From Chloroflexota bacterium (GTDB taxonomy: Bacteria > Chloroflexota > UBA11872 > VXOZ01), in assembly GCA_965221905.1 (NCBI GenBank), contig OZ244922.1, positions 3,168,001 to 3,232,000 on the forward strand: a stretch of 64,000 nt of DNA, in the 5' to 3' direction. The notes under the pieces were generated by a model. That model made no database searches. It was not told the origin of the DNA and worked only from the letters and a program-made list of their open reading frames with translations. The translations under genes were made by a program, and so were the position numbers. Positions 7,798 to 52,928 of this stretch are shown one piece after another (within the stretch, counting starts at the first letter, position 1; each line of letters begins with the position of its first letter).

Positions 7798-7808
7798 AGG
7801 GAATCACG

Positions 7809-9146: not shown

Positions 9147-9274
9147 GGGCCCCTCGTGATTCTTTCTGAAGATCTGGCACGCTCGTCGCCTTGCATCTGC
9201 ACTAAAGAGTAGGCTTTAGGCGTATGTTATACTGATATTGACGATAACTCAAAGTAGTTGCTTAAGGTCTGTCT

Positions 9275-9529
9275 ATGGCGATGTTTGATACGCACAAGGC
9301 GATAAAAACCCTTACGGGCACGGGCTTCAATGAATCCCAGGCTGAGGCGCTCGTGGACTTGGTGGGCGCAGAGCGAGGCGAACTCGTTACTAAGTCAGAC
9401 CTCCGGACAGAACTACAGGCGTTGGAATTGCGTATTGAAAAGCGATTTCACCAGTTAACGATTCAGCTTGTTTTGTTGTTTGTCGCGTTAGCAGGTGTGT
9501 TAACCGCACTGGAGCTAATACCGCAATAG
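9275..9529 (+). CDS. Small coiled-coil protein with C-terminal TM (DUF1640/CCDC90-like)
   Basis: FDTHKAIKTL..GF.E.QAEALV...LVTKSDL pattern. Confidence 0.75.
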   Translation: MAMFDTHKAIKTLTGTGFNESQAEALVDLVGAERGELVTKSDLRTELQALELRIEKRFHQLTIQLVLLFVALAGVLTALELIPQ

Positions 9530-9595
9530 CCTCTGGATTCATTTGGCTTCACCCGCGAAGGGCTTGAAGCGAGCAAGACACGTGAACGAGAATCT

Positions 9596-9628
9596 AAAAG
9601 CCCGCTACTGTCGTAGCGGGCTCTTTTT
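9596..9628. terminator. Bidirectional intrinsic terminator
   Basis: aaaagcccgctac-tgtc-gtagcgggctcttttt between convergent genes. Confidence 0.8.
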
Positions 9629-9650
9629 CCTAAAATACGGGCACACTCTT

Positions 9651-10115
9651 TCACCCAGCCTTGAGGCTCTCCGCGTATTCAGAAATGAATGCGTCGACCT
9701 TGTCGCCCTTCAAGTCTCCCGGGCGAAAGTCGCGCAGCGCTTGCACCGCATCCGCCGGCGCGTAGCCTTCGTACTTCACCAAATAACCTGCCAGGACCGT
9801 ACCGGCCCCGCCGAATCCGGAGCCTCAGTGGATGAGGGCTTTGTCGTCGCGCATGGCCGCCGCGTGCAGGGACTCAATGGCGGCATCGAGCGTCGCCAAA
9901 TCGCTGCTGGCGCCATCAAACTGATCGACGGTCATGCCCAGGCGTTCGATGGCGGCCGTATCCGGGTCCTTACTCGACGCGGCGACGATGTGCGTAATGC
10001 CCTGTGCTGCCACCGCGCGCAGTTCCTCCTCGGTATCCGGAAAACCGGAGGCGGCGAACTTGCCTTCCTCGAACCACTTGAAGATCTGTGGCAACGTCTG
10101 TGCATTCTCAGCCAT
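9651..10115 (-). CDS. PTP/dual-specificity-phosphatase-fold protein with in-frame TGA at the catalytic Cys codon (candidate selenoprotein; alternatively a pseudogene)
   Basis: FAASGFP...GITHIV...ALIH-TGA-GSGFGGAGTVLAGYLV...AVQALRDFRPG; frame stays open 57 codons past the TGA at 9827-9825; RBS gaaaggaagg. Confidence 0.75.
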
Positions 10116-10286
10116 AATCCCCTTCCTTTCAATTCAGCAATACAGTAAGACTACAGTACGATTCAAAGCTGCAATACTCTCTCGTTGTAGTGTTGGTGCT
10201 CCTCATGCGGAGCGGTTCAGCCCTGCTACTTTCTCATCGAGGTCCACTTTTGCCTTATCGCATCGTCCTCAGACCGGAGTAAGTCC

Positions 10287-13200: not shown

Positions 13201-13454
13201 TTTTGGTAGCGCTGCACGTAGCCTTGCATGGCTTTAAAGCGCTGGTAGACATCTTTGTAGGTGCGTCCCCACGCGTGGTGAACGCCCATGGGGTTATTGG
13301 CGGTAATGGGGCCGTCAATGAAAGACCAGCGAGGGTTGCCGCTATTCTTCGCGACAAGCTTCTCAAAGGCATCGGTATCCTGCCAGAACTTCAGAATCCG
13401 ATGCTCCATACTGGGAAAGTCGAGGTCTCTACTGACTTCCTTGAACCCGGCCAA
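10287..13454 (-). CDS. ileS: Isoleucine-tRNA ligase, type 2
   Basis: DGPITAN, WTTTPWTL, GTGIVHIAPG, DWCISRKRFWG; long type-2 C-terminus without zinc finger; signatures GVHH and PMHKS. Confidence 0.96.
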   Translation of the reverse strand: MAGFKEVSRDLDFPSMEHRILKFWQDTDAFEKLVAKNSGNPRWSFIDGPITANNPMGVHHAWGRTYKDVYQRFKAMQGYVQRYQNGFDCQGLWLEVEVERDLGFDSKHEIEEFGLDNFSRECRKRVEHFSSVQTNQSIRLGQWMDWDNSYYTMDDTNIEHIWYFLKRCHEKGWLYKGWRSMPWCIRCGTSLSQHELVGTDTYREVTHPGITLRLPIKGRANEYILVWTTTPWTLAANTALAVHPDLTYVAAEADGNTYYLSKGTLESVGRGKLTAVRELKGAELVGLEYTGPWHDLPVQQDFLTKVVAWENVGEEEGTGIVHIAPGCGAEDYELSQEYGLHVIVPIDGDGNYVDGFGPLTGRSITDTNEMIFDALGKAELVYRIEDYTHRYPVCWRCGAEVAFRLVEEWFISAEEIRERMLAENQTVEWVPEYGGKRMDDWLNNMGDWCISRKRFWGLPLPFYHCESCDHVTIVGTVQELEERAVDAAKVRALPELHRPWIDEIKVHCEQCNGETARIPEVGDCWLDAGIVPFSTNGYLEGSSEWGNWFPADFISEMREQIRLWFYALAFMSVTLEDVRAYRNVLIYEKVNDEHGKPMHKSHGNAIWFDEAVEKMGADVMRWLYCESNTQQNLNFGYAVAQDVKRRLLLFWNIYNFFVTYARLEDFDPTNVSVPLEVRSLMDRWIIALLHKLVRDVTNDLEQFDAYSVARRVNSFIEQLSTWYVRRGRRRYWKSGQDRDTMSAYVTLYEVLTTLTRTIAPIMPFLSEEVYQNLVRSVDSAAPESIHHTEWPRYNASLIDEDLLVHMELAQRIVGLGRAARSTSKIKVRQPLPEMLVHAKTADELEGLGRLQDHILSELNVKSLRFVGPEEELVTYELKPRFNLLGPKYGRQVKAIAAALRQSDAQVGARLVAEGQPIAVVVDGQPIELRPEEVDVQARERADYSVATEEGYLVALHTEISPDLEREGMARELIHHVQNLRREADFNLSDRIVTYIGVADGAEGRANVAAMLRTHSEAVAQETLSVRVESSFAPDGAHQEVVDLNGLSVTLGVVRA

Positions 13455-13751
13455 TTCGTGCCTCCTCGATGCCGCAATTGTGCGGCTGGGAATCTATTAG
13501 AATGTTATGTTGCCTTCGGCACTTTGTGATTGAGAAGTTGTCTCTAGGTAATGCTGCTTTAGAAAAGACTGAGAGCGGGTGAAAGTGCAGCGCTGTTGCG
13601 AAGTGCTTCGAGCACGGCACAAAGCGCTGGCAAGCTGCTCCTACCCATGGAATTTTGTCACGGACGTATGCCGGGCGTCAAGCCTGAGCGAGCGTTGGTT
13701 CCTATACTCTCGGTCGGTATCCGATCCTTGCTCATTCAATTGCGCGAGGAT

Positions 13752-13777
13752 GTAGGGGCACGACATGTCGTGCCCCT
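13752..13777. repeat. GTAG-type REP palindrome
   Basis: gtaggggcacgacatgtcgtgcccct. Confidence 0.8.
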
Positions 13778-14179
13778 CCGTGTCAATTTACTCTCGAGGC
13801 GGACAAGTTCAGGGTGGCACGAACCCAAAGCAAAGTGCCTGACAAAATGGACGTGGCAGATTTCGTACAGAGATTTCCTCAAAAGAGAGGAGGAAACCAA
13901 GCCTACTCGTATGCTTTAGAGAGATAGCGGCACAAGGAGTCCCTTTCGCAGAGGGGACGCAGGTTGCAAACCTGCGCTACCGGAGTTGACGGCTATCGCG
14001 GCCTGGGTTGTTCCTACGCAGCGTATATGACAGCATTGGTTCTGTATCCACCTCTCAGCATGCATCGAGGTCCGCGAACCGGAAGTGGCGGACTGCCTAG
14101 GTCGTCCACCACTCCCGCAATCACGTGAGATATGCATCTAAAATTTGAGGAAACTAGACCATTACGCTAATCAGGAGGG

Positions 14180-14950
14180 TTGCTCGTGAGCGAGATTGGG
14201 TTTTCACTGACCGACAAGGTTGCCTTGGTCACCGGCGCCAGCCGCGGCATCGGGCGGGGCATTGCCCGGGCGCTCGCCGAAGCCGGTGCGGACGTGGCGG
14301 GCGTGTCGCGGTCCGCTTCCACCGAGACGCAAGCCCAGGTCGAGGCTGCGGGGCGGCGTTACCTGTCGTTGCAAGCCGATTTGGCGACGGCTTCGGTTGC
14401 CGATCTCAGAGGGCTCGTTGACCAAACGGCGGCGCACTTTGGCCGAATCGACATCTTGGTGAACAATGCCGGTATCACCTGTCGCAAGCCCGCGCTTGAG
14501 CTTACGGAAGAGGATTGGAACACCGTGCTACAGGTGAACCTCCATGCGGTATTCTTCCTCTGCCAGGCCGCGGGACGCTACTTCGTGCCTCAGGGCCGAG
14601 GCAAGATCGTCAACATCGCTTCGCTCATGTCGTTTCAGGGCGGCGTGCACATTGCGCCGTACGTCACGAGCAAGCACGGCGTGGCCGGCATCACCCGCGC
14701 CTTGGCCACGGACTGGGCGCCGCACGGGGTCAACGTCAACGCGATCGCGCCGGGCTACATCGATACCGACATGACAGAAGCTTTGCAGCAGAATCCCGTC
14801 CGTGCTCCCGAAATCAGGAGCCGCATTCCCGCCGGCCGCTGGGGCACAGCAGAGGACATCGGCAAGCTGGCAGTGTATCTCGCCTCAGACGAGTCCGATT
14901 TCATGCACGGCTCGATCGTGCCCATAGACGGCGGCTGGCTGGCGCGGTAG
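14180..14950 (+). CDS. kduD: SDR oxidoreductase, 2-dehydro-3-deoxy-D-gluconate 5-dehydrogenase-like
   Basis: TGASRGIG, NNAG, IASLMSFQGG..YVTSKHG, VDGGWLAR-type end. Confidence 0.8.
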   Translation: MLVSEIGFSLTDKVALVTGASRGIGRGIARALAEAGADVAGVSRSASTETQAQVEAAGRRYLSLQADLATASVADLRGLVDQTAAHFGRIDILVNNAGITCRKPALELTEEDWNTVLQVNLHAVFFLCQAAGRYFVPQGRGKIVNIASLMSFQGGVHIAPYVTSKHGVAGITRALATDWAPHGVNVNAIAPGYIDTDMTEALQQNPVRAPEIRSRIPAGRWGTAEDIGKLAVYLASDESDFMHGSIVPIDGGWLAR

Positions 14951-41457: not shown

Positions 41458-41877
41458 ATGCCTGATAGCTCTAGTCCGCAGCCCCACGTGCCCGCTGAAA
41501 CCAAAGGACGGCACAAGACCATCGCCGTCGTTGCCGGGGAATGGCACCTGCGAGCACTCGTCCGCGCTGCCATTGAGAACAAGCGCACGAGCGTTGTCGA
41601 GGCGTCGTCTTTGCAAGCACTGAACGCGCTGGCCCACGACGAACGTCTTGCCCTTGTAATTCTGGATGCCGACCTCGCGCCTGACAACACGGTGCCTGAT
41701 TATGCCCCGCTCTTTTGTGACCCCGTGTTCGCGGCCATACCGCTAATCGTTCTCACCGACCGCACCGCGCGTGACGTTACGGCACTCACCGGCGCAAGTC
41801 AGCAGGTTCGCACGCTCTACAAGCACTTCAGCCCCTTCGAACTCCTAAACATCGTGTACACGCTCACGGGCTATTAA
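41458..41877 (+). CDS. Stand-alone, degenerate response-regulator receiver domain
   Basis: LVILDADL, IPLIVLT, KHFSPFEL; acidic pocket reads AGE. Confidence 0.65.
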   Translation: MPDSSSPQPHVPAETKGRHKTIAVVAGEWHLRALVRAAIENKRTSVVEASSLQALNALAHDERLALVILDADLAPDNTVPDYAPLFCDPVFAAIPLIVLTDRTARDVTALTGASQQVRTLYKHFSPFELLNIVYTLTGY

Positions 41878-42107: not shown

Positions 42108-42992
42108 ATGCAGAACTTTCGCGTTACCGCAGTCTCGTTGCGCAGCCGACCGGCGTCGCCGCAGGAGAACCTCGACCATCACGCCGCCTGGGTTGCGCGC
42201 GCCAAGGCGGACGATCCCGATCTCATCTGCTTTCCTGAGCTCGGCCTGACCGGCTACTCCATCACTTCAGCCATTTGGGATTCATCCGAACCGGTGCCGG
42301 GGACTTCCACCCAGGCGCTCGTCGATCTGGCGCGCACGCACAACGTTATGCTGGCCGCCGGCATTGCCGAGAACGACCGCGACATCGTCTATAACACCTA
42401 CGTTATTGTCGGGCCGGACGGGTACATCGGCAAGTCGCGCAAGATCCACATCCCACCGGCGGAGGTGGGCTATTGGCGCGGCGGCGGCATTCCACCGGTG
42501 ATCGACATTGGCCCCGCCAAAGTCGGGGTCAACATTTGCTTCGACAACTGGCTGCCGGAGTCCGGCCGCATGGTAGCGCTCCAAGGCGCTGAGGTGATTC
42601 TCGCTCCGTACGTGTGGTCTGTCGGCGACTGGAGCGACCCGCCCGACCATGTCAGCCGCAACCGCGCGTGGAAAGACTACGCCGGGCGCACGTTTCCGGC
42701 ACGAGCCATCGATAACGGCGTCTTTCTCGTTGCCATTAATGCCTGCGGTCCCGCTCCCGACAGCGAAAGACCGTACTACGGCAATCCCATGGTCATGATC
42801 TACAATCCGCTGGGCCAACTGGTGGCGGCTTCACCGGACGAGGCCGGTGACGAGGTAATGGTCACCGCCGATCTCGACATGCAACTCCTCGCCGAGCGGC
42901 GTTCGCAGGGCGTATTCCATCCCCGCTTCCGGCGGCCGGAGCTTTACGGCCTCCTGGCGGAAGGCGACATCGGCCCGCAAGACCCGCGCTAA
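42108..42992 (+). CDS. Carbon-nitrogen hydrolase (nitrilase superfamily)
   Basis: FPE, RKIH, ICFD triad, RAIDN, RRPELY. Confidence 0.92.
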   Translation: MQNFRVTAVSLRSRPASPQENLDHHAAWVARAKADDPDLICFPELGLTGYSITSAIWDSSEPVPGTSTQALVDLARTHNVMLAAGIAENDRDIVYNTYVIVGPDGYIGKSRKIHIPPAEVGYWRGGGIPPVIDIGPAKVGVNICFDNWLPESGRMVALQGAEVILAPYVWSVGDWSDPPDHVSRNRAWKDYAGRTFPARAIDNGVFLVAINACGPAPDSERPYYGNPMVMIYNPLGQLVAASPDEAGDEVMVTADLDMQLLAERRSQGVFHPRFRRPELYGLLAEGDIGPQDPR

Positions 42993-43144
42993 CTGGGGCA
43001 GACTCTCCCCCCTCGCACGTGCGTGCGTGTGATCTCTTCTAACTCCGAGTAAAACATTCGCCGTTTCAAGCGGAGGCTAGCCTATTTGCAGTCAATCCTC
43101 CCGCTTGCGAACCATAGAAAGTACAACCACGGACAACACTCCCG

Positions 43145-43453
43145 GTAGCGTAGGTTTGTAACCTGCGCCCACATGGTGGGAGGCAGTCCCTGTGAGCGCC
43201 TGGCCCTCATTCTTTAACGCTACGATAGTTCCCCCTCACCCCGGCCCTCTCCCTCGATGGAGAGGGGGCAATACGCGGACGAGAAAAGTGAACACGTGGC
43301 ATTTCCTAATTGCGCGAAACTGCTTGGTGCAAGCTCCCGCGCTACGATCTCTTTCTTTCATGCAACTAAGAGGAGCGGGGGACAAGTCCCCGCGCTACAT
43401 TCCTCCTAGCAGTCCCAATGCCGCTCCAAGCGGGGGGTAAGCCCCCGCGCTAC
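43145..43453. repeat. REP cluster upstream of dop (GTAG/CTAC REPs and a CCCTCTCCC element)
   Basis: gtagcgtaggtttgtaacctgcgc; cccctcaccccggccctctccc..ggagagggg; three copies ending cccgcgctac at 43345, 43398, 43453. Confidence 0.75.
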
Positions 43454-43583
43454 GGTCCGTCTTGCAGCCCCTCGCGCGAGACCCTACGCAATTCACTTTA
43501 CACACCGGACACCCGCCTGCACCATCGTGGCGCACTGCGGCTTGCTATACTAGATTCCACAAGCGTAAAGGCAGGAATTATTC

Positions 43584-45098
43584 ATGAATCGCCCGGTAGG
43601 CATTGAGACCGAGTATGGCATGCTCTGCGCCAGCAGCACGCAAGCAGTGGACTTTGCCTATGAAGCAGCCATGCTCGTGCGCAGCGCGCCGCTGGAAGAA
43701 TGCTTTCGCGGCTGGGACTACACTGCCGAGGACCCGCGCTTAGACCTGCGTGGGTCACGCGTCGACCGCCTCGACCAAGACCCACACGACCTGCGCGACA
43801 GCAACGCTAAGAGCAAGCAACTCTCCCGACAGGAACTCCTTGCCGACACCGTGCTTGCCAACGGCGCGCGCTTCTACAACGACCACAACCATCCCGAGTA
43901 CTGCACGGACGCCTGTCTTTCGCTCCACGACCTCGTTGCCCAGGACAAGGCCGGTGAACGCGTGGTCTTTCGTGCCCAGCAGGCGCGGAACGCCGCCATC
44001 GGGAATGACTCGCACGTGCGCCTTGTGAAGAACAACTCCGACTACCACGGGCGCAGCTACGGCTGCCACGAGAACTATCTGGTGAAGCGCGCCGTGCCAT
44101 TGAATTACCTGGTTGCGGCCTGCATTCCCTTCTTCGTCACCCGTCAGATCTACGCGGGCGCGGGCAAAGCAGCGATTGAGTCGGCAGCTGGCCGCGCGGG
44201 CGGCTTTCAAATTAGCCAGCGGGCAGACTTCTTCGAAACCGAAGTCGGCATCAACACTACGACCAAGCGTCCGATTTTCAATACGCGCGATGAGCCCCAT
44301 GCCGATCCGCAGAAATACCGCCGCTTGCACGTCATCATCGGCGATGCCAATTGCTCTGAGTACGCCACGGCACTCCGCGTGGGAACCACGGCCCTAATGC
44401 TCGATCTGGTAGAAGAGGGTCTTGCGCCTCGTCTGCAACTCCGGCATCCGGTGCAAGCGCTCCAGACCGTCTCTCGCGACCTCGAACTGAAGCAACCCCT
44501 CGCGTTGGCTGACGGCACGACTATGCGCGCCATTGACATCCAACGCCACTACTGGGAAGCCGCGCAGCGCTACCGAGAGAGGGACGCCGAGACAACTTGG
44601 GTGCTCGACGAGTGGGGCGCCGTGCTCGACCTGCTCGAAGCGAACCCAACCCAACTGCGCGACCGTCTCGACTGGGTGGCAAAGCTGGCGCTTTTCGCTC
44701 AAGTCAGCGGCGGCACGAGTATCGATTGGGAAGACCCGGCGGTGCTCAGGCTCGATTTGGCCTACCATCTCATCGATCCCGACTTAAGTCTCTATCATAT
44801 GCTGACGCGCGCCGGTCGGATGCGGCGTGTCGTGACGGATGCGGCCGTTGCACAGGCGGAAACAACGGCCCCTGCAGGCACGCGCGCAGGTGTACGCGCC
44901 GCTTGCCTTGCCAAGTTTGCCGAGCACATTACGGAAATGGAATGGGGATCGATTACGTTTCAACACAATGGATCAGCTTTCACTCTGCCGCTCCCCGAAT
45001 TGTGGGGAGCATCTGTCGATAGCCAACAACAGATGCTCGATTCTTGTCAATCTATCGAGGAGCTCCGCCAAGCAGTGCGCCAAGGAGGTGACACGTGA
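43584..45098 (+). CDS. dop: Dop-type deamidase/depupylase (PafA/Dop family)
   Basis: GIETEYG, Dop loop WDYTAEDPRLDLRG, NGARFYNDHNHPEY, KNNSD..GRSYGCHENY, NTRDEPHAD, RRLHVIIGD. Confidence 0.9.
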   Translation: MNRPVGIETEYGMLCASSTQAVDFAYEAAMLVRSAPLEECFRGWDYTAEDPRLDLRGSRVDRLDQDPHDLRDSNAKSKQLSRQELLADTVLANGARFYNDHNHPEYCTDACLSLHDLVAQDKAGERVVFRAQQARNAAIGNDSHVRLVKNNSDYHGRSYGCHENYLVKRAVPLNYLVAACIPFFVTRQIYAGAGKAAIESAAGRAGGFQISQRADFFETEVGINTTTKRPIFNTRDEPHADPQKYRRLHVIIGDANCSEYATALRVGTTALMLDLVEEGLAPRLQLRHPVQALQTVSRDLELKQPLALADGTTMRAIDIQRHYWEAAQRYRERDAETTWVLDEWGAVLDLLEANPTQLRDRLDWVAKLALFAQVSGGTSIDWEDPAVLRLDLAYHLIDPDLSLYHMLTRAGRMRRVVTDAAVAQAETTAPAGTRAGVRAACLAKFAEHITEMEWGSITFQHNGSAFTLPLPELWGASVDSQQQMLDSCQSIEELRQAVRQGGDT

Positions 45099-45319
45099 CC
45101 TGGTATGCTGGAGACAAGCCGCAGACGGAATGTCCCTCCCGCAAAGCGCGGGTAGACTCCGAGCGGCAAAGCTTCCGTCCCGCTGTGGCGGGTACCGAGG
45201 TGCCCACGGAAACGCCTACGAAGGCTCCGGAGAAGACCGAAACCGACGATCTTGACGAAGAAATCAAGCGCATTATTCGCGAGGTGCCCGATCCCACACC
45301 TCAGCCCGGCGGAGAGTAG
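45095..45319 (+). CDS. Prokaryotic ubiquitin-like modifier candidate (Pup/UBact analogue) ending in GGE
   Basis: 74 aa, P/T/E-rich, ends DDLDEEIKRIIREVPDPTPQPGGE; RBS AAGGAGGT at 45082-45089; GTGA overlap with the dop stop. Confidence 0.85.
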   Translation: MTWYAGDKPQTECPSRKARVDSERQSFRPAVAGTEVPTETPTKAPEKTETDDLDEEIKRIIREVPDPTPQPGGE

Positions 45320-45797
45320 CTAAGACCCATTCAGTTGCGCACAATAGACGCACACCACAGAGTCGTCGTAGCCCTTTATATAGTTTGCCCCTCATGAATC
45401 CTGCAGAAATGGCTTACGGGACGAGTGATCGGCCCAGTGGCTTGCGTCCCTGGCCGATACCTGAGTCACAATCCAAGCTTCAAGCCCTATCGCTAAACGT
45501 AATCACCTCATGTATGGCAAAGGATCCGTACCTCTAGCGCTACCACCGAAACCGATACCGTCACAGCGCCGGCACCCACCGCCGTGGCAACAGGCAAGAG
45601 CAGGGCGTCGAAACATCCAATGGAATTGCAGTGCTGGATATTTCGCCGACAGCATGGGAATATGGAACGGCAAGAACTGATGCCCATATATCGGTTGCCT
45701 TAGCCATTAGATAGCGCAGTCACGAGCCGTGACTCCTCAAGTACTAAATTCGAACGTGGCGGGCGGAACGTAAATCTTCACTCCAGCGAAGAACCTA

Positions 45798-45869
45798 CCC
45801 CGTATCGAGTACGGGCAGAAGTCCAGCGGCTGCGGCGAAGATGGATTCCCGCTTTCGCGGTAATGACGG
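45798..45869. repeat. REP-like remnants upstream of pafA
   Basis: ccccgtatcgagtacggg and tggattcccgctttcgcggtaatgacgg. Confidence 0.7.
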
Positions 45870-45954
45870 CGTTGAACGTGTTCTAATTGCAATAGATGCG
45901 AACCGGATTTACGAAACTGTCAACGAATTAGTCAGCTCTTTCAGGATTGCCAGC

Positions 45955-47463
45955 ATGGAAGATGCACTCTTTGGCACCGAAATCGAATACGGCTGTGTGG
46001 GTAGCGTACAACCGGTGCGGGCGGCAGTGTTGGTTAAGGATGCCATCTTTCGCGGGTGCAGGCACGGCCTCATCGATCCCCCGCCTCGCGAGTGGGGCGA
46101 AGTGCCGGGAAACGGCGGCTTTCTCTTCAACGGTGGGCGCATGTACTTAGACCTCGGCCACCTGGAGCACGCCACCGCCGAGTGCCGCACTCTAACGGAT
46201 ATCGTCGCCCACGAGCGGGCCGGTGAGAACATCGTCAATCAAGCCGTCCAAGTTGCCGGACTCAAATCTCAGGCCTACTTCGTCAAGAACAACACAGATT
46301 ACTTCGGCAATACGTATGGCTACCACGAGAATTACTGCATCCGCCAGAGTCCCTATGACAGCGGTCTGGTAGACGGCATGCTCCCGTTTCTCGTCACCCG
46401 CCAAATCTATGCGGGAGCCGGCTGCCTGCTGCCCCGCGGCGATGACACCCCGGCAGCCTTTTCTCTCTCCCAGCGCGCGCAATTCGTGACAATTGACGTT
46501 AGTCACCGGGTACGCTTTGGCGGCAGACCCATCATCAATTTGCGCGACGAGCCGCTTGCGGATCGGCGGTTCCGTCGCCTGCACGTCATCGTCGGCGACG
46601 TGAATCGCTCGGAGTACGCGACCGCGCTGAAAATCGGCTCCACTGCGCTAGTTGCCCAACTGCTGGAGCAAGGGTGGAACCCGCAGCTTATGCTTGCCGA
46701 CCCCGTGCGCGACTTGCGCCGCATTGCCGCAACCACCGGCGGCAAGTGGACCGTAGGCACGGTGGATGATGAGTACATTCCCGCCATCGAGGTGCAACGC
46801 CGCTATTTGCGCGAAGCCGAGCACCGCTTTGCGGGCCGGGACGCGGATACGGAATGGACTCTTGAAAACTGGGCCTGGGTGCTCGACGAACTCGAGCGCG
46901 ATCCGGCGCGCCTCGACGGCTATCTGGACTGGGTGACCAAACATGAGCAGATCAAGCGTTATGCCGGCACCGATAAGGCGTGGACCGACCCGGACTTGGT
47001 GAAGCTCGATCTCTCCTATCACCAAATAGACCCGTCGGTGAGTCTCTTCGATATTCTTGCAAAGCGGCACCGGAACCTCTACTGGGCGGATAGCGACGCC
47101 GTCTACACGGCCGAGGCGCACGCGCCGTCCGATACCCGCGCCCACGGTCGCAGCCTGGCACTGCGCGCGCTTGCCGCCGCCGGCGCGGATACGGCCATCC
47201 CTTGGCAAGATTTGAGAACCAATCTGGAAAACCTCATGTGGGACCGCCGTTTCTTCTTTCTCGCCTACGACTACGTGGACGATTGGCAAGACGTGGCCGC
47301 GAACAATAGCTGGGACGTTATTCCCTACGTGCTGGACTGGAAAGCCATCGCCGCGCACGGCCGGGTGCTGGAAATGCCGAACCCATTCGCTACGTACGAC
47401 GACGAGGCGCAACAGTTTGGGGAAAGCATCCGGCACATCTTCGAGGAAGAGGAAGCAGATTGA
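45955..47463 (+). CDS. pafA: PafA-type Pup/UBact protein ligase
   Basis: GTEIEYG, FLFNGGRMYLDLGHLEHATAEC, KNNTD..GNTYGYHENY, RPIINLRDEP, RRLHVIVGD; no WDY Dop loop. Confidence 0.88.
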   Translation: MEDALFGTEIEYGCVGSVQPVRAAVLVKDAIFRGCRHGLIDPPPREWGEVPGNGGFLFNGGRMYLDLGHLEHATAECRTLTDIVAHERAGENIVNQAVQVAGLKSQAYFVKNNTDYFGNTYGYHENYCIRQSPYDSGLVDGMLPFLVTRQIYAGAGCLLPRGDDTPAAFSLSQRAQFVTIDVSHRVRFGGRPIINLRDEPLADRRFRRLHVIVGDVNRSEYATALKIGSTALVAQLLEQGWNPQLMLADPVRDLRRIAATTGGKWTVGTVDDEYIPAIEVQRRYLREAEHRFAGRDADTEWTLENWAWVLDELERDPARLDGYLDWVTKHEQIKRYAGTDKAWTDPDLVKLDLSYHQIDPSVSLFDILAKRHRNLYWADSDAVYTAEAHAPSDTRAHGRSLALRALAAAGADTAIPWQDLRTNLENLMWDRRFFFLAYDYVDDWQDVAANNSWDVIPYVLDWKAIAAHGRVLEMPNPFATYDDEAQQFGESIRHIFEEEEAD

Positions 47464-47708: not shown

Positions 47709-49145
47709 CTACGTCTTCCGCCGCCACAACGTTCCGCTAGCCGAATCCTCCAGCGAAATGCCTAATGCCGCCAACTCATCCCGCACCTTGTCCGCCAGCG
47801 CAAACTGCTTCTCCTGCCGCAGATCGGCCCGCAATTCCACGAGAAGATCGATGAACCCTCCGGCATCGCCGTCACCGGTCGCCATCTCCAACTCCAAGAC
47901 CTCTTGCAGGTCGATGCCCAAGATGTCGGCCAGTGTCACCAGCGTTTCCTGGGCGGCCTGCAGTGTCGAGGGTTGCGCCACGGCTCCCAGGCGGTTGATC
48001 TCGCGCACAAGTTCGTAGAGCTGCCCCATTGCGCCGGCAGAGTTGAAGTCGCTATCCATGGCGGCAAAGAAGCCGGATTCCGCCTGCTGCGTTGCCCGAG
48101 CAAGCTCTGCGTCCGTGCTGGCGACTTCAGCATCCGTGCTGCCGTCACCGCTGCTCTGCACGCGCAAAGCGCCGGTAAAACGCGCCATTCCGGCCCGTGC
48201 CTGCTCAAGACTTTCCGGCGTATACGTGAGGGGCGAACGGTAGTGGACAGAGAGTAGGTAGAGCCGCAGCACCGGGCCGCTGTACTCGTCGAGGATGTCT
48301 TCGATGGTAATGAAGTTGCCGAGCGAATGCGCCATCTTTTGGCCGTTGATGGTAAGCAGGCCGGTGTGCAGCCAATACTTCGTAAACGGACTCTTCCCCG
48401 TGAACGCCTCGCTCTGCGCGATCTCATTCTCATGGTGGGGAAAGATGAGGTCGGCGCCGCCGCCGTGAATATCGATCTGCTCGCCCAGGGTCTCGTAGAT
48501 CATCGTGCTGCACTCGATGTGCCAGCCCGGTCGCCCCTGCCCCCAGGGGCTCTGCCACCAGGGCTCGCCGGGTTTCGCCGGCTTCCACAGGGCAAAGTCG
48601 CGCGGGTCGCGCTTACCCGGATCATCGTCAACGCGCCCCGAGGCCCCCGCCTGGATGCCGCTATCCTCAGTGCGAGTGGAGAGCGCGCCGTACTGCGAAA
48701 AACCGGAAACGGAAAAGTAGACCGCATCGTCGGCTGCGTAGGCAGCCCCCTTCTCGATCAACCCCTCGATCATCGCGATGATCTGCGGCAAAGTCTCCGT
48801 GACCTTGGGAAAGTCGTGCGCCCGCAAGACATTCAGATTTCCCATCACCGCGTCGTAGGCGTCCGTGTATTTCTGCGCCACTACATCGGCCGTAACTCCC
48901 TCACGCTCAGCCGCCGCGATGATCTTATCGTCAACGTCGGTGATATTCTGCACGTGCTGCACCTCGTACCCGCAGTACACAAGGTAGCGCCGGATCATAT
49001 CCATCGCCACAAAAAGGCGGGCATGGCCGACGTGCGGCTCGCGCTTGGGCGTCATGCCGCAGACGTACATCTTGACCTGCTTGCCGTCCAGGGCTGTGAA
49101 CGGCTCTCTTCGGCTGCCGAGCGTATTGGAAATGCTAAGCGTCAC
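47709..49145 (-). CDS. cysS: Cysteine-tRNA ligase
   Basis: [42 protein letters not shown]; GTG start overlapping the end of cysE. Confidence 0.96.
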
Positions 49146-49824
49146 GGCACCTCTCCAGCGTCTCCTCGTGCTCGGCTGAAGCCCCATCATCCTCGAAGCG
49201 TGCCAGCCGCGCTTCCAGGTCTGCCACGCGTTTCTGCAACGCGTAGAGCGCTTCGGCCATTGGATCGGGCTGCACCACCCGCGCGCTCTCGCCCGTTTGC
49301 GGATCGCGCATGGCCACCACGTGTCCCGGCACGCCCACCACCGTGGCATGCGGCGGCACATCGTTCACAACGACGGCCCCCGCGCCAATAACACAGTCTT
49401 CACCGATCATCACCGGCCCCAAGATTTTCGCTCCCGCGCCTACCACGACGTTATCGCCCAAGGTAGGATGACGCTTGCCGGAATGCAGCGTCTGCGCCCC
49501 CAAAGTCACTCCCTGGTACAGTGTGACGTTTTCGCCGATTTCCGCGGTCTCGCCGATTACGACACCCATGCCGTGGTCGATGAAGAGCCCTGGGCCCAGT
49601 TGGGCCGCCGGGTGAATCTCGATGCCGGTGAGAAAGCGGGCAACGTGGGAGAGAAAGCGCGGAACCACAGGAATGTCCGCTTGCCACAGCGCGTGGGTCA
49701 TGCGATAGAACCAAATCGCGTGCACGCCCGGATAGGCCAAGATGATTTCGATTACGTTGCGCGCGGCAGGATCGCGTTCGAGCGTTACACGTATGTCCTG
49801 CCGCAGCGTATGAAGAATGCTCAT
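49135..49824 (-). CDS. cysE: Serine O-acetyltransferase
   Basis: [33 protein letters not shown]. Confidence 0.96.
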
Positions 49825-49911
49825 TAGAAATACCCTCGTTACATCACTGCGCTTCTATCGACTAAGATTGCGCGTGGTGAGCTTGTGCTCGCGCGCAATC
49901 ACACAGGGCCC

Positions 49912-50502
49912 CTAGCGGGGCGGAATACACGCGCAGTCTTGCAGCGAGGGATCGTGCATCAGAAGCGCCACAGCGTGCACACCGATGCCGTGACCGGCGC
50001 CGATCGCGTCTAGTCCTTCGGTGGTTGTGGACTTTATGCCTACGGTCACTGCCGCCACTCCAAGCGTTCGGGCAATGTTGGCCTGCATCTTGGGAATAAA
50101 GCCCGCAAGCCGAGGCCTTTGCGCCAGAATTGCACTGTCTACATTTATCACACGCCACTGTCGTTCAGCCAGTAGCTTACGCACACTGCCCAACAATTGC
50201 AAGCTATCGGCGCCCTCGTATCGCGGATCTTCCGCGGGAAACTGGCGTCCGATGTCGGGCAGCCCCGCGGCTCCGAGCAGCGCATCGATGATGGCATGCA
50301 CCAGCACGTCGGCGTCGGAGTGCCCCGCAAGACCTTGATCGTGGGGGACGTGTACACCGCCAAGAATCAGGGGACGGCTAGGAGCAAGGCGGTGAATGTC
50401 GTAGCCGATACCGATGCGAAGCGCGGGGGCCGCGGGTGCTAATGCTGCGGCCTCTCCCTCATCTTGAACGGCAGGCGGCGTATCGGTTTGCGCTGCCTCC
50501 AC
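49912..50502 (-). CDS. ispF: 2-C-methyl-D-erythritol 2,4-cyclodiphosphate synthase
   Basis: RIGIGYDIH, GHSDADV, DIGRQFP, KSTTTE; start inferred. Confidence 0.95.
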   Translation of the reverse strand: MEAAQTDTPPAVQDEGEAAALAPAAPALRIGIGYDIHRLAPSRPLILGGVHVPHDQGLAGHSDADVLVHAIIDALLGAAGLPDIGRQFPAEDPRYEGADSLQLLGSVRKLLAERQWRVINVDSAILAQRPRLAGFIPKMQANIARTLGVAAVTVGIKSTTTEGLDAIGAGHGIGVHAVALLMHDPSLQDCACIPPR

Positions 50503-51224
50503 TACGCGCCTCCATCGCTGCGCTGCGTGCGCACACTTCTGTGCGCACGCCATTGAGCGAATGCCAAGTCCGTTGGCGTGGTGATTTTCATATTACCATA
50601 GTCCCCCGGCACGACGTGGACAGGCGCGCCGGTAGCCTCCACCACGGCCGCGTCATCGGTGAACGCGGCGAGGTGCGCATGGTGCTCCTTGTACGCGCAT
50701 TCCAGCAGTGCGCGCGTGAAGACTTGGGGAGTCTGTATGGCGCGCAAGGCGCTGCGCGGTAGCGTCTCGCGTGCAATATCGTTCGTATCAACACGCTTGA
50801 TGGTGTCGGCGCACGGTATCCCAGGCACCGCCGCGCCGTGCTGCCGCGCGGCAGCAAGCAAGCGCGCAATTAGCTCCGGGGTCACGAACGGCCGCGCGGC
50901 GTCGTGCACGGCCACGTAAGCTGCCGGAGTGTCATCCAGCGCCTGGAGACCGTTCGCCACCGAGTGGCTCCGGCTCGTCCCGCCCGCGCAGACTGCATGC
51001 ACTTTACACCAGGAGCGCTTCCGGGCAAGCTCCCGGCAGAATCCGACGCGCTCCTCGGCCACGACGAGTATGATCGTGCTAACCGCCGCTGACGACTCAA
51101 AGACTTCCACCGTGGCGGCAAGCACCGACCGTCCGCCCAGTGGCGCATAGAGCTTGTCGTGGCCCTGCATGCGGCTGCTACTACCGCCACCCACAACAAT
51201 CGCCGCCAAGCTGGTATTCCTCAC
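50502..51224 (-). CDS. ispD: 2-C-methyl-D-erythritol 4-phosphate cytidylyltransferase
   Basis: VHDAARPF, QTPQ, TDDA, NMKITTPTD. Confidence 0.95.
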   Translation of the reverse strand: MRNTSLAAIVVGGGSSSRMQGHDKLYAPLGGRSVLAATVEVFESSAAVSTIILVVAEERVGFCRELARKRSWCKVHAVCAGGTSRSHSVANGLQALDDTPAAYVAVHDAARPFVTPELIARLLAAARQHGAAVPGIPCADTIKRVDTNDIARETLPRSALRAIQTPQVFTRALLECAYKEHHAHLAAFTDDAAVVEATGAPVHVVPGDYGNMKITTPTDLAFAQWRAHRSVRTQRSDGGA

Positions 51225-51479
51225 ACGCGCAGGCCTCCTTCAGGGAGCCTTATAACGCCCGCAAAAGTCCGCTCACAGTGAGCCCACTTGTTCTTAGCAC
51301 GTCGTAGCGTCTAATCATGAACGAACATCCCTTGACCCTTTTGACACGCTCAGAGACTGCCGTGTACTCGATACGAGGGGCGGACGGGATGGAAGTGCTC
51401 GACAGCATCTTTGCAAACACCCTCCTGCAGCGTGTGCGCTTGCTCTGCCGGACTCTCGGCACGGTATCACGTCCACTCC

Positions 51480-52928
51480 TCATTGCCGGCGCACAGCGGC
51501 TTCCTCTGTGCCTTCGCGAGCGCCTCCATCATCGCCCTTGCGGCTCGCTCCCTGCGCTTTTCCCAGGGCGAGACGGATAGACTGTCGCACACTCTCAGCG
51601 CGGGAGAGGTCGAGGCCGTCCTCGCCAAGCGATGCAAGCGCGCCGGTGCGCGGCAAGAGCACCCGGTTGTACCCCCGACGCGCCGCCTCCAGGACTCGTT
51701 CTTCCAACTTAAAGACGCTCCGCAGCTCACCTGCCAACCCGACTTCTCCAATCGAGACCATATCACCCGGCAGAGCGACGTCAACGACGCTGGATGCGAT
51801 TGCCAAACAGACTGCGAGGTCTACGGCGGGTTCGTCCAATTCCAGGCCGCCGACCACGTTCACATAGACGTCCTGGTCGGCCAAGCGTAAGCCCGCGCGC
51901 TTGGTGAGCACCGCAATCAGCATGTGCAGGCGGCTCTGATCGAATCCGTTCGCCATGCGTCGCGGTACCGCCAGCGGACTGTACGTCACCAACGCCTGCA
52001 CCTCGACGAGGAGCGGACGAGAACCCTCGAGCGGCACGGCAATGGCAGACCCCGGTAGTGGTTCCCGCTCTGCCAGAAACGCTGCCGAAGGGTTGGAAAC
52101 TTCCGCCAAGCCCCGCTCCTGCATGGCGAATATGCCCACTTCGTTCGTAGACCCAAAGCGATTCTTCGTGGCTTTCAGAATGCGGTAGTTGTGGTGCTGA
52201 TCTCCGTCCAAGGCCAACACCGTATCTACCATGTGCTCCAGCGTCTTCGGCCCGGCCACAGTGCCCTCCTTGGTCACGTGGCCGACCAAGAAAAGCGTGA
52301 CTCCCGTCTGTTTGGCCAGCGCGACCAACTGGGAAGCGCATTCTCGTACCTGTCCGATACTGCCCGGTACCCCCGATAGCTCCGCGCTAACCAGCGTTTG
52401 AATTGAATCGATGATCACCAGGCCGGGACGCACCTGCGCAATTGCATCCAGGATTCCCTCTAGACCAATCTCGGCGAGGACGTAAAGCTCCTGCGGGTCG
52501 AGACCGAGCCGTGACGCGCGAATGCGGATCTGTGCCGCGCTCTCCTCCCCCGACACATAGAGCACAGGCCGGTCGGCGTGCTCCAACGCTACTGCAAACT
52601 GGAGCAAGAGCGTAGACTTTCCGATTCCGGGGTCGCCGGAGAGCAGCACCGCGCTCCCCGGCACTAAGCCGCCGCCCAAGACGCGATGGAGTTCACCGAT
52701 CGGCACCGGAATGCGGATGAGATCGCTGGCAGGAATGTCTTGGAGTTTCCGCGCTTGCAGAGCGGCGGTGGGCGAGCGCACGCCGGAACGCCTTGCACCC
52801 GCGGCTCCCTCCCTCTGCACATTTTCGACAAAGCTATTCCAGGCCTGGCAAGAGGGGCACTGCCCCGCCCATTTCGGGGACTCTGAACCGCACTGCTGAC
52901 AAACGAAAACGCTCTTAGCCTTACTCAC
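51480..52928 (-). CDS. radA: DNA repair protein RadA/Sms
   Basis: CxxC..CxxC, GDPGIGKST, KNRFG. Confidence 0.97.
   Translation of the reverse strand: MSKAKSVFVCQQCGSESPKWAGQCPSCQAWNSFVENVQREGAAGARRSGVRSPTAALQARKLQDIPASDLIRIPVPIGELHRVLGGGLVPGSAVLLSGDPGIGKSTLLLQFAVALEHADRPVLYVSGEESAAQIRIRASRLGLDPQELYVLAEIGLEGILDAIAQVRPGLVIIDSIQTLVSAELSGVPGSIGQVRECASQLVALAKQTGVTLFLVGHVTKEGTVAGPKTLEHMVDTVLALDGDQHHNYRILKATKNRFGSTNEVGIFAMQERGLAEVSNPSAAFLAEREPLPGSAIAVPLEGSRPLLVEVQALVTYSPLAVPRRMANGFDQSRLHMLIAVLTKRAGLRLADQDVYVNVVGGLELDEPAVDLAVCLAIASSVVDVALPGDMVSIGEVGLAGELRSVFKLEERVLEAARRGYNRVLLPRTGALASLGEDGLDLSRAESVRQSIRLALGKAQGASRKGDDGGAREGTEEAAVRRQ

What the first reader, a model, noticed from the sequence alone, without database searches (positions are those of the whole stretch)
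43584..47463. Ubiquitin-like tagging locus (dop - small GGE protein - pafA) with no proteasome or ARC genes alongside
Seen: co-oriented Dop-type and PafA-type genes with intact catalytic motifs flank a 74-aa ORF ending in GGE that is translationally coupled to dop. Established: actinobacterial Pup loci run arc-dop-pup-prcB-prcA-pafA, UBact loci also sit with proteasome genes, and corynebacteria pupylate without a proteasome but keep ARC. Here the prcB-prcA slot holds about 635 bp with no ORF of 60 aa or more, and the arc slot holds a REP cluster and a nitrilase-family gene. Inference: a divergent, possibly proteasome-independent conjugation system in a probable Chloroflexota genome, a lineage not classically associated with pupylation.
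Basis: partly seen in the sequence, partly recalled or inferred. Interest (0 to 1): 0.9.

Follow-up and report, generated by a model that had tools for sequence, protein, structure and literature searches.

The report
Proteasome-free Pup-like protein tagging module
An uncultured Chloroflexota bacterium carries a compact three-gene set (tag remover, small tag protein, tag ligase) related to bacterial ubiquitin-like tagging, but with an unclassified tag and no proteasome or partner unfoldase anywhere in its complete genome.

Summary
Window 43584-47463 holds three co-oriented genes: a Dop-type gene, a 74-aa ORF ending PQPGGE, and a PafA-type gene. The small ORF starts at a GTG that overlaps the dop stop (GTGA).

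The small ORF is a real gene. All 54 related loci plus the window end in RIIRE[VIM]PDPTPQPGG[E/Q]. Thirteen residues are invariant despite 2-4 synonymous codons each.

The tag matches neither the Pup nor the UBact models, even at E<=10. A UBact from a relative, G017, is recognised by the same scans.

The complete 3.52-Mb genome has no proteasome-family match. It has no ARC/Mpa, no proteasomal-ATPase OB domain and no Cdc48 homologue.

In the class, 89 of 98 genomes carry the tag. Only G017 has an arc-dop-UBact-prcB-prcA-pafA locus.

In trees, each enzyme forms its own clade beside the UBact-type enzymes, not inside the canonical actinobacterial clades.

A complex model supports tag-ligase binding (0.83 against a best control of 0.00).

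The 635-bp "slot" is not a proteasome remnant. It is a lineage-specific spacer that is partly a dispersed repeat.

Verdict: a new variant of Pup/UBact-type tagging, apparently uncoupled from the proteasome and ARC. What happens to tagged proteins is unknown.

The parts
43584..45098 (+). Dop-type gene (504 aa): predicted tag-removing isopeptidase and Gln-to-Glu deamidase
   Evidence: PF03136 522 bits. TIGR03688 Dop 455 bits (cut-off 492.3) against PafA 363. It aligns end to end (residues 1-502) with Acidothermus Dop 5lrt at 382 bits, including the Dop-loop region at about residues 40-87. GIETEYG and YNDHNHPEY are kept. It sits in a class-specific clade (SH-aLRT 100) sister to UBact-type Dops (99).
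45082..45088 (+). Shine-Dalgarno-like AAGGAGG, six bases before the tag's GTG start and inside the end of dop
   Evidence: Read directly. The GTG at 45095 and the dop stop TGA at 45096-45098 overlap as GTGA.
45095..45319 (+). Small tag protein (74 aa). It has a variable Pro/Thr/Glu-rich N-terminal half, an acidic helix-like DDLDEEIKRIIRE, and the tail VPDPTPQPGGE.
   Evidence: 23 homologous clusters, all unnamed and without Pfam domains. The tail is invariant in 54 loci plus the window, with synonymous codon turnover. One copy in each of 89 of 98 class genomes. No Pup or UBact model hit at E<=10. Predicted to bind the PafA-type enzyme through the last 26 residues or so.
45320..45954 (.). 635-bp spacer. 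The first ~300 bp are unique. About 45620-45950 is a dispersed repeat with a 33-bp REP-type core at 45837-45869.
   Evidence: blastn against the own genome gives 16-87 hits per bin in the second half and only the self hit in the first half. No Rfam match at E<=1. No proteasome remnant by tblastn. Spacer length varies from 6 to 734 bp among 54 loci.
45955..47463 (+). PafA-type gene (502 aa from ATG 45955; the 540-aa frame from 45841 is an artefact of the repeat): predicted tag ligase
   Evidence: PF03136 359 bits. TIGR03686 PafA 291 bits against Dop 257, both below cut-off. C. glutamicum PafA 4b0t 216 bits against Dop 212. No Dop-loop. It reads YLDLGHLEHATAEC, with the PafA-like L before the catalytic Asp, an xG after it, and ATAE. 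E9, E11, H124, E125, R191, N195, R197, E199, D215 and N217 are invariant in 54 relatives. Its class-specific clade groups with UBact-type PafAs, apart from canonical PafA.
43100..43460 (.). REP-like repeat cluster upstream of dop (context, not part of the module)
   Evidence: Up to 74 genome hits per 30-bp bin. Hairpin-forming ...CCCGCGCTAC... units are visible.
42108..42992 (+). Carbon-nitrogen hydrolase (nitrilase superfamily) gene. It is a neighbour only, and is not conserved next to the module.
   Evidence: PF00795 145 bits. No neighbour family is shared by more than 13 of 54 loci.

Best explanation
The locus is a self-contained three-gene module for reversible, Pup/UBact-style tagging of proteins on lysine. 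It uses a previously unclassified, intrinsically disordered tag and works without a 20S proteasome or an ARC/Mpa unfoldase.

Proposed mechanism, all inferred from homology:
1. The PafA-type enzyme binds the conserved tail of the tag (helix DLDEEIKRIIRE plus PDPTPQPGGE).
2. It activates the gamma-carboxylate of the terminal Glu with ATP.
3. It joins that carboxylate to substrate lysines.
4. The Dop-type enzyme removes the tag again. In species whose tag ends in Gln (10 of 54 loci) it first deamidates Gln to Glu.

The part of Pup that binds Mpa has no conserved counterpart here. Only the enzyme-binding tail is conserved.

I therefore think the mark most likely acts as a reversible regulatory or steric modification read by something other than a proteasome. 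Hand-over to Lon, ClpXP or FtsH is the main alternative.

The module most likely descends from a UBact-proteasome locus like the one in the class member G017, after loss of arc and prcBA and rapid change of the tag. This is inference.
For: Shown here:
- Both enzymes are full-length Pup_ligase members with the active-site motifs intact.
- They split as expected. ORF1 has the Dop-loop and D-H-x-H. ORF2 has no loop and has L-D-x-G ... ATAE. These are discriminators named in passages of PMC7947786.
- The tag is under strong purifying selection. Thirteen residues are invariant across 55 sequences with 2-4 synonymous codons each, while Dop identity falls to 44%.
- Termini are Glu in 44 of 54 loci and Gln in 10 of 54, the same dichotomy as in Pup.
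- The dop-tag-pafA order holds in 52 of 54 loci; two are cut by contig ends. No other conserved neighbour exists.
- One tag copy in each of 89 of 98 class genomes.
- Of the 9 genomes without a tag hit: G017 has UBact; 5 also lack Pup_ligase; 3 are broken by contig ends or an N run between the enzymes.
- The own genome is one contig and 99.64% complete. It has 0 PF00227 matches. The best ARC hit, 153 bits, is FtsH. There is no OB-domain hit above cut-off and no Cdc48 hit above cut-off. tblastn with G017 PrcA and PrcB gives best E values of 0.13 and 1.5.
- In the class, PF00227 matches 12 of 98 genomes, and only G017 has a paired, strong locus. An ARC-like hit at E<=1e-50 occurs in 1 of 41 genomes.
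- Complex model of the PafA-type enzyme plus the 50-aa tag tail plus ATP and Mg: score 0.83, best of 3 controls 0.00. That mark was reached by 58 of 80 solved complexes and 2 of 110 mismatched pairs. Partner pLDDT is at least 60, and the runs agree in at least 71% of contacts. Tag residues 25-50 touch enzyme residues 11-21, 66-69, 108-124 and 332-371. A PafA-Pup complex is solved (4bjr), so the pass may partly reflect likeness to it.
- Weak support: contigs from metatranscriptome libraries of two studies bridge the dop end and the tag, 44873-45297 and 44921-45610. DNA carry-over is not excluded.
Against: - No biochemical evidence exists for conjugation, removal or deamidation.
- Both enzymes score below NCBIfam's equivalog cut-offs.
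- ORF2 is almost equidistant from solved PafA and Dop (216 against 212 bits). Its HLEH replaces the usual HPEY in this genome, although the class consensus keeps HLEY.
- Homology of the tag to Pup or UBact is not demonstrable: hhalign probability 0.5%.
- 10 of the 89 tag-bearing genomes have a single weak proteasome-family gene of 22-46 bits. G000 does not, but some proteasome-like partner in some members cannot be ruled out.
- An unrecognised reader or unfoldase could exist.
- The complex model may score high from memory of the solved PafA-Pup complex.
Confidence: 0.72

Rival explanations
1. It is still a degradation tag, but delivers substrates to another ATP-dependent protease of the cell (Lon, ClpXP or FtsH) instead of ARC plus 20S.
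For: The genome encodes ClpP with an adjacent ClpX-like AAA gene, two Lon proteins, one FtsH and one FtsH-like protein. The tag keeps a long, variable, disordered N-terminal half. In Pup this region is the threading end; that role is recalled knowledge, not from a call.
Against: No such protease gene is linked to the module in any of 54 loci. The N-terminal half shows no conserved degron-like motif. There is no precedent in the papers I could search.
Confidence: 0.25
2. The module is a decaying relic of a UBact/Pup-proteasome locus and no longer functions.
For: The proteasome and ARC partners are gone. Both enzymes fall below equivalog cut-offs.
Against: The frames are intact in 52 of 54 loci across at least 17 genera, and the tag tail is invariant with synonymous turnover. 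The catalytic residues are invariant in 54 PafA-type sequences. RNA-library contigs cover all three genes.
Confidence: 0.04
3. The enzymes act on something other than proteins (a small molecule or a cell-envelope amine), or the small ORF is a cofactor or peptide precursor rather than a protein tag.
For: [quoted passage not shown] The nearest clade to the PafA-type enzyme lacks the RPIINxRDEP motif (consensus of A4), which shows functional drift in this part of the family. The tag tail is unusually rigid in sequence.
Against: The ends are GG[E/Q] with both Glu and Gln forms. A Dop-type partner with its loop is present. The tail is predicted to dock in the canonical groove with its last residues at the active-site strand.
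Confidence: 0.08
4. A proteasome or ARC is present but was missed, because it is too divergent or unassembled.
For: Absence by model search is never absolute. 11 other class genomes carry single weak PF00227 genes.
Against: G000 is a single 3.52-Mb contig and 99.64% complete. In the control genomes PF00227 rings for E. coli, B. subtilis and the archaeal proteasomes. Six-frame tblastn with the same-class G017 proteins finds nothing. 86 of 98 class genomes have no match.
Confidence: 0.03

Closest known systems
UBact system (Dop, UBact, PafA with ARC and 20S), as found here in the same-class genome G017 and, by record names, in Armatimonadota and Verrucomicrobiota relatives
   Same: The gene order dop-tag-pafA is the same. 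The class Dop clade is sister to UBact-type Dops (SH-aLRT 99). The class PafA clade shares a starred branch (99) with UBact-type PafAs. The tag is short, disordered and ends in G-E/Q. A helix followed by a (V)DP.T-like turn is loosely similar, but not significantly so.
   Different: The tag is not recognised by NF033388 or PF20513, although G017's UBact scores 77 and 79 bits. The end is PQPGG[E/Q] rather than ...RQRSGE. No arc, prcB or prcA is at the locus or in the genome.
Actinobacterial Pup-proteasome system (Pup, PafA, Dop, Mpa/ARC, PrcBA)
   Same: The enzyme superfamily is the same (PF03136). ORF1 aligns over its full length with solved Dop, including the Dop-loop. The terminus is GG[E/Q], with both Glu and Gln forms. 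An acidic DDL.E.I motif precedes the tail.
   Different: No PF05639 Pup match at E<=10. The enzymes lie outside the canonical clades whose members pass TIGR03686 and TIGR03688. The second Pup helix is replaced by a Pro-rich PDPTPQP. There is no Mpa/ARC and no 20S.
Proteasome-less pupylation of Corynebacterium glutamicum
   Same: Tagging without 20S subunits. A non-degradative outcome (ferritin disassembly) is documented (passages of PMC8223512).
   Different: C. glutamicum is among the control genomes that ring for the ARC model and for Pup_ligase, and it is not among those that ring for PF00227. According to the review its pupylation works with unfolding. The Chloroflexota module has no ARC at all and a different tag.

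Membership tests
Pup_ligase superfamily (PF03136; carboxylate-amine ligase fold) | Match over Pfam's gathering score, and conserved N-terminal G.E.EYG and HENY motifs | tested here: met
   522 and 359 bits against a cut-off of 25. The motifs are seen.
Canonical Dop (TIGR03688 equivalog) | Score at or above the curated cut-off of 492.3 bits | tested here: not met
   455.4 bits. The match is full-length and includes the Dop-loop, so the protein is Dop-like but outside the equivalog.
Canonical PafA (TIGR03686 equivalog) | Score at or above the curated cut-off of 551.3 bits | tested here: not met
   290.9 bits. Members of the canonical clade, P0283 and P0317, score 693 and 598.
Pup (PF05639) | Match to the Pup model | tested here: not met
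   No match in six frames of the genome at E<=10. No match for three tags at E<=10. HMMER's filters drop most matches above about 0.1.
Pup (PF05639) | C-terminal Gly-Gly-Glu/Gln | tested here: met
   GGE in 44 and GGQ in 10 of 54 loci; GGE in the window.
UBact (NF033388 / PF20513) | Match to the UBact models | tested here: not met
   No hits for the window tag or two relatives at E<=10. The G017 UBact control scores 77.3 and 79.3 bits. hhalign of the tag profile against G017 UBact gives probability 0.5%.
Pup-proteasome / UBact-proteasome system | 20S alpha and beta subunits in the genome | tested here: not met
   0 PF00227 matches in the complete genome. tblastn best E values 0.13 and 1.5. 86 of 98 class genomes have no match.
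Pup-proteasome / UBact-proteasome system | ARC/Mpa-type AAA ATPase with OB domains | tested here: not met
   The best TIGR03689 hit is 153 bits, which is FtsH. PF16450 best hit is 12.7 bits, E 0.435. An ARC-like hit at E<=1e-50 occurs in 1 of 41 relatives, G017.
Pup/UBact-type conjugation (function) | ATP-dependent isopeptide ligation of the tag to lysines, and its reversal | not testable with these tools
   Only a complex model is available: 0.83 against a best control of 0.00.

The most novel reading that the evidence does not exclude
This is a third family of disordered bacterial ubiquitin-like tags, after Pup and UBact. It is fixed across an uncultured Chloroflexota class. It is the first case in which Pup-type ligase and deligase chemistry is natively uncoupled from both the proteasome and its ARC unfoldase. 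If so, it is a pure reversible signalling modification, or it has an entirely new reader.
Probability: 0.45. Interest if true: 0.8.

Novelty: new variant of a known kind. Interest (0 to 1): 0.7.

Why it matters
Pupylation is usually presented as a route to the bacterial proteasome. Even the known proteasome-less case, Corynebacterium, keeps the ARC unfoldase.

Here the ligase, the deligase and a strongly constrained tag have been kept across a whole bacterial class: 89 of 98 genomes and at least 17 genera. Proteasome and ARC are missing from the window's genome, and only one class genome (G017) has them at its tagging locus.

This asks what such a tag is for once degradation is removed, and it makes the question testable with three small genes. 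It gives a natural system for studying the enzyme-binding part of a Pup-like tag in isolation. It documents how a UBact-type system can be remodelled.

It may also offer a compact orthogonal ligase-tag pair for proximity labelling, as PafA and Pup are already used (title and abstract of bioRxiv 10.1101/2024.01.09.574788, seen in the listing).

Tried and rejected
Remnant of prcBA in the spacer: rejected. tblastn with G017 PrcA and PrcB against the whole genome gave no hit in the spacer. The second half of the spacer is a dispersed repeat.

RNA element in the spacer or upstream: no Rfam match at E<=1. The promoter scan found 0 sites. No terminator-like site lies between the tag and pafA.

Homology of the tag to UBact: hhalign is not significant, so I do not claim it.

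ESM Atlas look-alikes of the tag: no usable hit.

Conserved neighbours that might be a reader: none is shared by more than 13 of 54 loci.

Genomic context for the PafA sister clade: a metagenome scan with alignment A4 used family-wide patterns. It returned 80 loci that are only 29-37% identical to the query. These are generic Pup_ligase loci, not the sister clade, and I did not analyse them.

Labels therefore rest on NCBI names shown and on NCBIfam scores of 10 chosen proteins.

RNA libraries: parts of the stretch have no contig cover in some runs. I draw nothing from that. The depth spike at 45726-45882 is the repeat.

Rows dropped before the trees:
- Of the 383 stored proteins numbered P0024 and above, plus 7 window and G017 sequences, only those of 430-640 aa were kept, giving 352.
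- These were clustered at 62% identity to 157 representatives.
- All 157 went into FastTree.
- I hand-picked 69 of the 157 to represent each clade for the IQ-TREE 'quick' run.
- No careful bootstrap run or AU test was done, and the tree is unrooted.

In one search my filter (ORF under 200 aa ending G[EQ]) found the tail in 18 of 20 loci. L007 has UBact. L020 was missed because its open frame is long; one search finds that tag.

Literature: searches found no paper on a Chloroflexota Pup-like system. Only the held open-access library was searched. The original UBact paper and Iyer et al. 2008 were not seen and are recalled. For PMC7203096 only the first 300,000 characters are held. Supplements of PMC7947786, including its alignments, could not be seen and may list further phyla.

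Full report
THE OBSERVATION. Three co-oriented ORFs lie on the + strand of the window:
- 43584-45098 (504 aa);
- 45095-45319 (74 aa, ending PDPTPQPGGE);
- 45841-47463 (540 aa).

The GTG start of the small ORF overlaps the TGA stop of the first gene (GTGA at 45095-45098). An AAGGAGG lies six bases upstream. Both large ORFs are Pup_ligase family proteins, at 522 and 359 bits.

The third gene most likely starts at ATG 45955 (MEDALFGTEIEYG). An alignment of 54 relatives starts there. The 5' extension of the long frame runs through a 33-bp repeat core (45837-45869) that occurs many times in the genome.

Upstream lie a carbon-nitrogen hydrolase gene and REP-like repeats.

Record titles of near-identical loci read 'MAG: Chloroflexota bacterium'.

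THE ENZYMES. ORF1 scores 455 bits on NCBIfam's Dop model and 363 on PafA. ORF2 scores 291 on PafA and 257 on Dop. All four scores are under the equivalog cut-offs.

ORF1 aligns end to end with the solved Acidothermus Dop at 382 bits. The alignment includes the stretch that corresponds to the Dop-loop. GIETEYG and YNDHNHPEY are kept.

ORF2 lacks that loop. It is almost equidistant from solved C. glutamicum PafA (216 bits) and Dop (212 bits).

Passages of Hecht et al. 2020 (PMC7947786) name features that separate the two enzymes:
- the Dop-loop;
- the alpha-loop;
- the residues around the catalytic Asp (Dop V-D-H-A against PafA L-D-V-G-S);
- S-A-P against A-T-A after the EY.

ORF1 reads N-D-H-N-H-P-E-Y with a loop, which is Dop-like. 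ORF2 reads L-D-L-G-H-L-E-H-A-T-A-E without a loop, which is PafA-like but one residue shorter.

In 54 PafA-type relatives these residues are invariant: E9, E11, H124, E125, R191, N195, R197, E199, D215 and N217.

So the assignment of remover/deamidase to ORF1 and ligase to ORF2 is well supported by sequence. It is not tested.

THE TAG. The public protein collection holds 23 clusters of homologues, all unnamed and without a Pfam domain.

A scan of one genome per species (185,579 species) with the tag alignment returned 54 loci. All carry Chloroflexota, Chloroflexi or Thermoflexus titles. The scan used two peptide patterns, so it cannot show absence elsewhere.

Every one of the 54 loci encodes a small ORF ending RIIRE[VIM]PDPTPQPGG[E/Q]. 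The end is Glu in 44 and Gln in 10.

Across 55 sequences, 13 tail residues are invariant although each uses 2-4 synonymous codons. Meanwhile Dop identity to the window falls to 44%. The N-terminal half is variable and rich in Pro, Thr and Glu. This is the signature of a translated, strongly constrained gene.

The tag is not recognised by the Pup model in six frames of the genome at E<=10. It is not recognised by any Pfam or NCBIfam model at E<=10. In the same calls the small ORF of relative G017 scores 77 and 79 bits on the two UBact models. A profile comparison with that UBact is not significant, at probability 0.5%.

WHAT IS MISSING. The window's genome is one 3.52-Mb contig and 99.64% complete.
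- The proteasome family model rings in E. coli, B. subtilis and the archaeal control genomes. It finds nothing here.
- The best hits of the ARC model (153 bits and below) are FtsH, an FtsH-like protein and a ClpX-like protein next to ClpP.
- The proteasomal-ATPase OB domain is not found (12.7 bits).
- No Cdc48 family protein passes its cut-off.
- tblastn with the same-class G017 PrcA, PrcB and ARC finds only E values of 0.13 and 1.5 and the FtsH AAA core.

The cell does have ClpP, two Lon proteins and FtsH.

DISTRIBUTION. In a sample of 401 Chloroflexota genomes, Pup_ligase passes its cut-off in 43. All 43 belong to the window's class, where 43 of the 46 sampled class members have it. It passes in none of the 355 genomes from other classes.

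Of the 98 genomes held for the class, 89 have exactly one tag match. The nine without break down as follows:
- G017 has UBact instead.
- Five also lack Pup_ligase: G031, G244, G362, G423 and G431.
- Three have the module broken by contig ends or an N run.

Proteasome-family matches occur in 12 of the 98. Only G017 has a strong pair, inside an arc-dop-UBact-prcB-prcA-pafA locus. The other 11 have a single weak gene of 22-46 bits. In the close relative G005 this gene sits in a 1.4-kb insert that the window's genome lacks.

An ARC-like match at E<=1e-50 is seen in 1 of 41 relatives, G017.

Within +-8 kb of the tag, none of the 54 loci has ARC, PrcA or PrcB. No other neighbour is conserved in more than 13 loci. 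The conserved unit is therefore just the three genes.

THE 'SLOT'. The tag-to-pafA spacer ranges from 6 to 734 bp over the 54 loci. It is 27 bp or less in 23 of them. Within the window's genus (15 loci) it is 24-27 bp in two and 245-673 bp in 13.

In the window, about 45620-45950 is a dispersed repeat with 16-87 genome hits. The first ~300 bp are unique. The spacer is a recent, lineage-specific insertion zone, not the grave of prcBA.

PHYLOGENY. From the two homologue searches and the representative search I kept 352 sequences of 430-640 aa. I clustered them to 157 and built a FastTree. I then ran an IQ-TREE 'quick' tree (LG+C20 PMSF) on 69 hand-picked rows.

The Dop side:
- The class Dop clade (SH-aLRT 100) is sister (99) to a clade that holds G017's Dop and proteins that NCBI names from Armatimonadota, Chthonomonadaceae, Fimbriimonadales, Acetothermia and Chthoniobacterales.
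- Both sit in a Dop superclade (98) with canonical Dops. One of these, P0380, passes TIGR03688.

The PafA side:
- The class PafA clade (86) joins an unnamed sister clade (together 99).
- It shares a starred branch (99) with G017's PafA, G017's paralogues and other unnamed PafA-like proteins.
- This group stands apart from the canonical PafA clade (99). Two canonical members, P0283 and P0317, pass TIGR03686.

At 50% clustering the class PafA clade has essentially one full-length representative (606 bits). The next full-length hits score 334 and 285 bits.

So neither enzyme nests in a described clade. The closest kin are UBact-type. The tree is unrooted and lacks bootstraps. Calling the outside clade 'UBact-type' rests on G017's verified locus and on recalled knowledge of where UBact occurs.

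BINDING AND EXPRESSION. The complex model used the PafA-type enzyme (54-row alignment), the last 50 residues of the tag (16 rows), and ATP and Mg.
- It scored 0.83, with a best of three controls of 0.00.
- That mark was reached by 58 of 80 solved complexes and 2 of 110 mismatched pairs.
- Partner pLDDT is at least 60, and the runs agree in at least 71% of contacts.
- The calibration held no riding ligands and used other alignments.
- The touching tag residues are 25-50, that is the helix and the tail.
- On the enzyme they are the N-terminal active-site strand (11-21), the Asp loop (66-69), residues 108-124 and helices 332-371.

A PafA-Pup complex is solved (4bjr), so part of the score may be memory of that likeness.

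Eight metatranscriptome runs from two studies hold 17-36% of the sampled words of the stretch. Contigs that are 95-99% identical bridge the dop end and the tag, at 44873-45297 and 44921-45610, and cover parts of all three genes. Contigs cannot show strand or exclude DNA, so this is only a hint of expression.

MECHANISM. What is shown: the genes, their conservation, their family membership, and the absence of the usual partners.

What is inferred:
- ATP-dependent ligation of the terminal Glu to lysines by the PafA-type enzyme.
- Removal, and Gln deamidation, by the Dop-type enzyme.
- A fate for tagged proteins that does not involve a proteasome or ARC.

Only the enzyme-binding tail of the tag is conserved. 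Nothing resembling a conserved unfoldase-binding segment remains. I therefore favour a reversible regulatory or steric mark (about 0.45) over delivery to Lon, Clp or FtsH (about 0.25).

The simplest history is descent from a UBact-proteasome locus like G017's, with loss of arc and prcBA and fast divergence of the tag. Independent transfer is not excluded.

NOVELTY. Pfam (2025) and NCBIfam (June 2026) have no model for the tag. No source names it. NCBI names the enzymes only 'proteasome accessory factor PafA2 family protein'.

Passages of Hecht et al. 2020 list Actinobacteria and Nitrospirae. [quoted passage not shown] They do not list Chloroflexi.

Seven full-text searches found nothing on a Chloroflexota system. 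Only the held open-access library was searched.

The review PMC8223512 (passages) describes proteasome-less pupylation in C. glutamicum, together with unfolding. It calls other proteasome-independent roles an open question.

I rate this a new variant of a known kind.

LIMITS.
- No experiment has been done.
- The organisms are uncultured.
- Taxon labels of outside clades are sparse.
- Supplements were closed.

Noticed in passing
L087 (G017:C2:54000-72000) 7490-14680, minus strand; also L088, L089, L090: G017 is the one class member with a full arc-dop-UBact-prcB-prcA-pafA locus: ARC 453 bits, PrcB 138, PrcA 71, UBact 77-79 bits. It also carries three extra PafA-like paralogues on other contigs (492, 527 and 492 aa). 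These cluster with its locus PafA in the tree.
   Followed up: partly
L028 1492-2280 (G005), and 10 other class genomes listed: Single, weak proteasome-family genes (22-46 bits, about 250-320 aa) occur without a partner subunit and away from the tagging module. In G005 the gene sits with a 154-aa ORF in a ~1.4-kb insert between an ornithine cyclodeaminase gene and an HD-domain gene. In the window's genome those two genes are about 140 bp apart, at roughly C1:559314-559454.
   Followed up: partly
window 45837-45869, and about 45620-45950: A 33-bp REP-type core (it translates to ...SRFRGNDG...) is found at over 90% identity at dozens of genome sites. A ~310-bp dispersed repeat has at least 15 copies at 66-75% identity. 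Together they create a false 38-codon 5' extension of pafA. They also cause a depth spike of thousands-fold in RNA-library contigs.
   Followed up: partly
window 47224-47460 (PafA-type residues ~424-502): The PafA-type enzymes of the class share a C-terminal extension that does not align to solved PafA. It has W462 and P477 invariant. Its consensus ...VLELPDPF..Y... (MPNPF in the window) resembles the tag's E[VI]PDPT. It could be a tag-mimicking, self-docking segment. This was not tested.
   Followed up: no
proteins P0279, P0282, P0271, P0293, P0335, P0311, P0315, P0375 (alignment A4): This is the nearest clade to the class PafA-type enzymes. It has GGTEIQLG instead of G.E.EYG and lacks the RPIINxRDEP motif in its consensus. 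P0279 scores only about 155 bits on the PafA and Dop models. It is a possibly non-catalytic or re-purposed branch of the family, and its context is unknown.
   Followed up: partly
window 41458-41877 +: A 139-aa ORF with a weak receiver-domain match (PF00072 18 bits, below cut-off) lies upstream of the nitrilase-family gene. It is not conserved next to the module.
   Followed up: no
window 47709-52928, minus strand: Downstream are housekeeping-looking ORFs on the other strand. I judged them from their translations only: cysteinyl-tRNA synthetase-like, serine acetyltransferase-like, IspF-like, IspD-like and RadA-like. No family scan was run on them.
   Followed up: no
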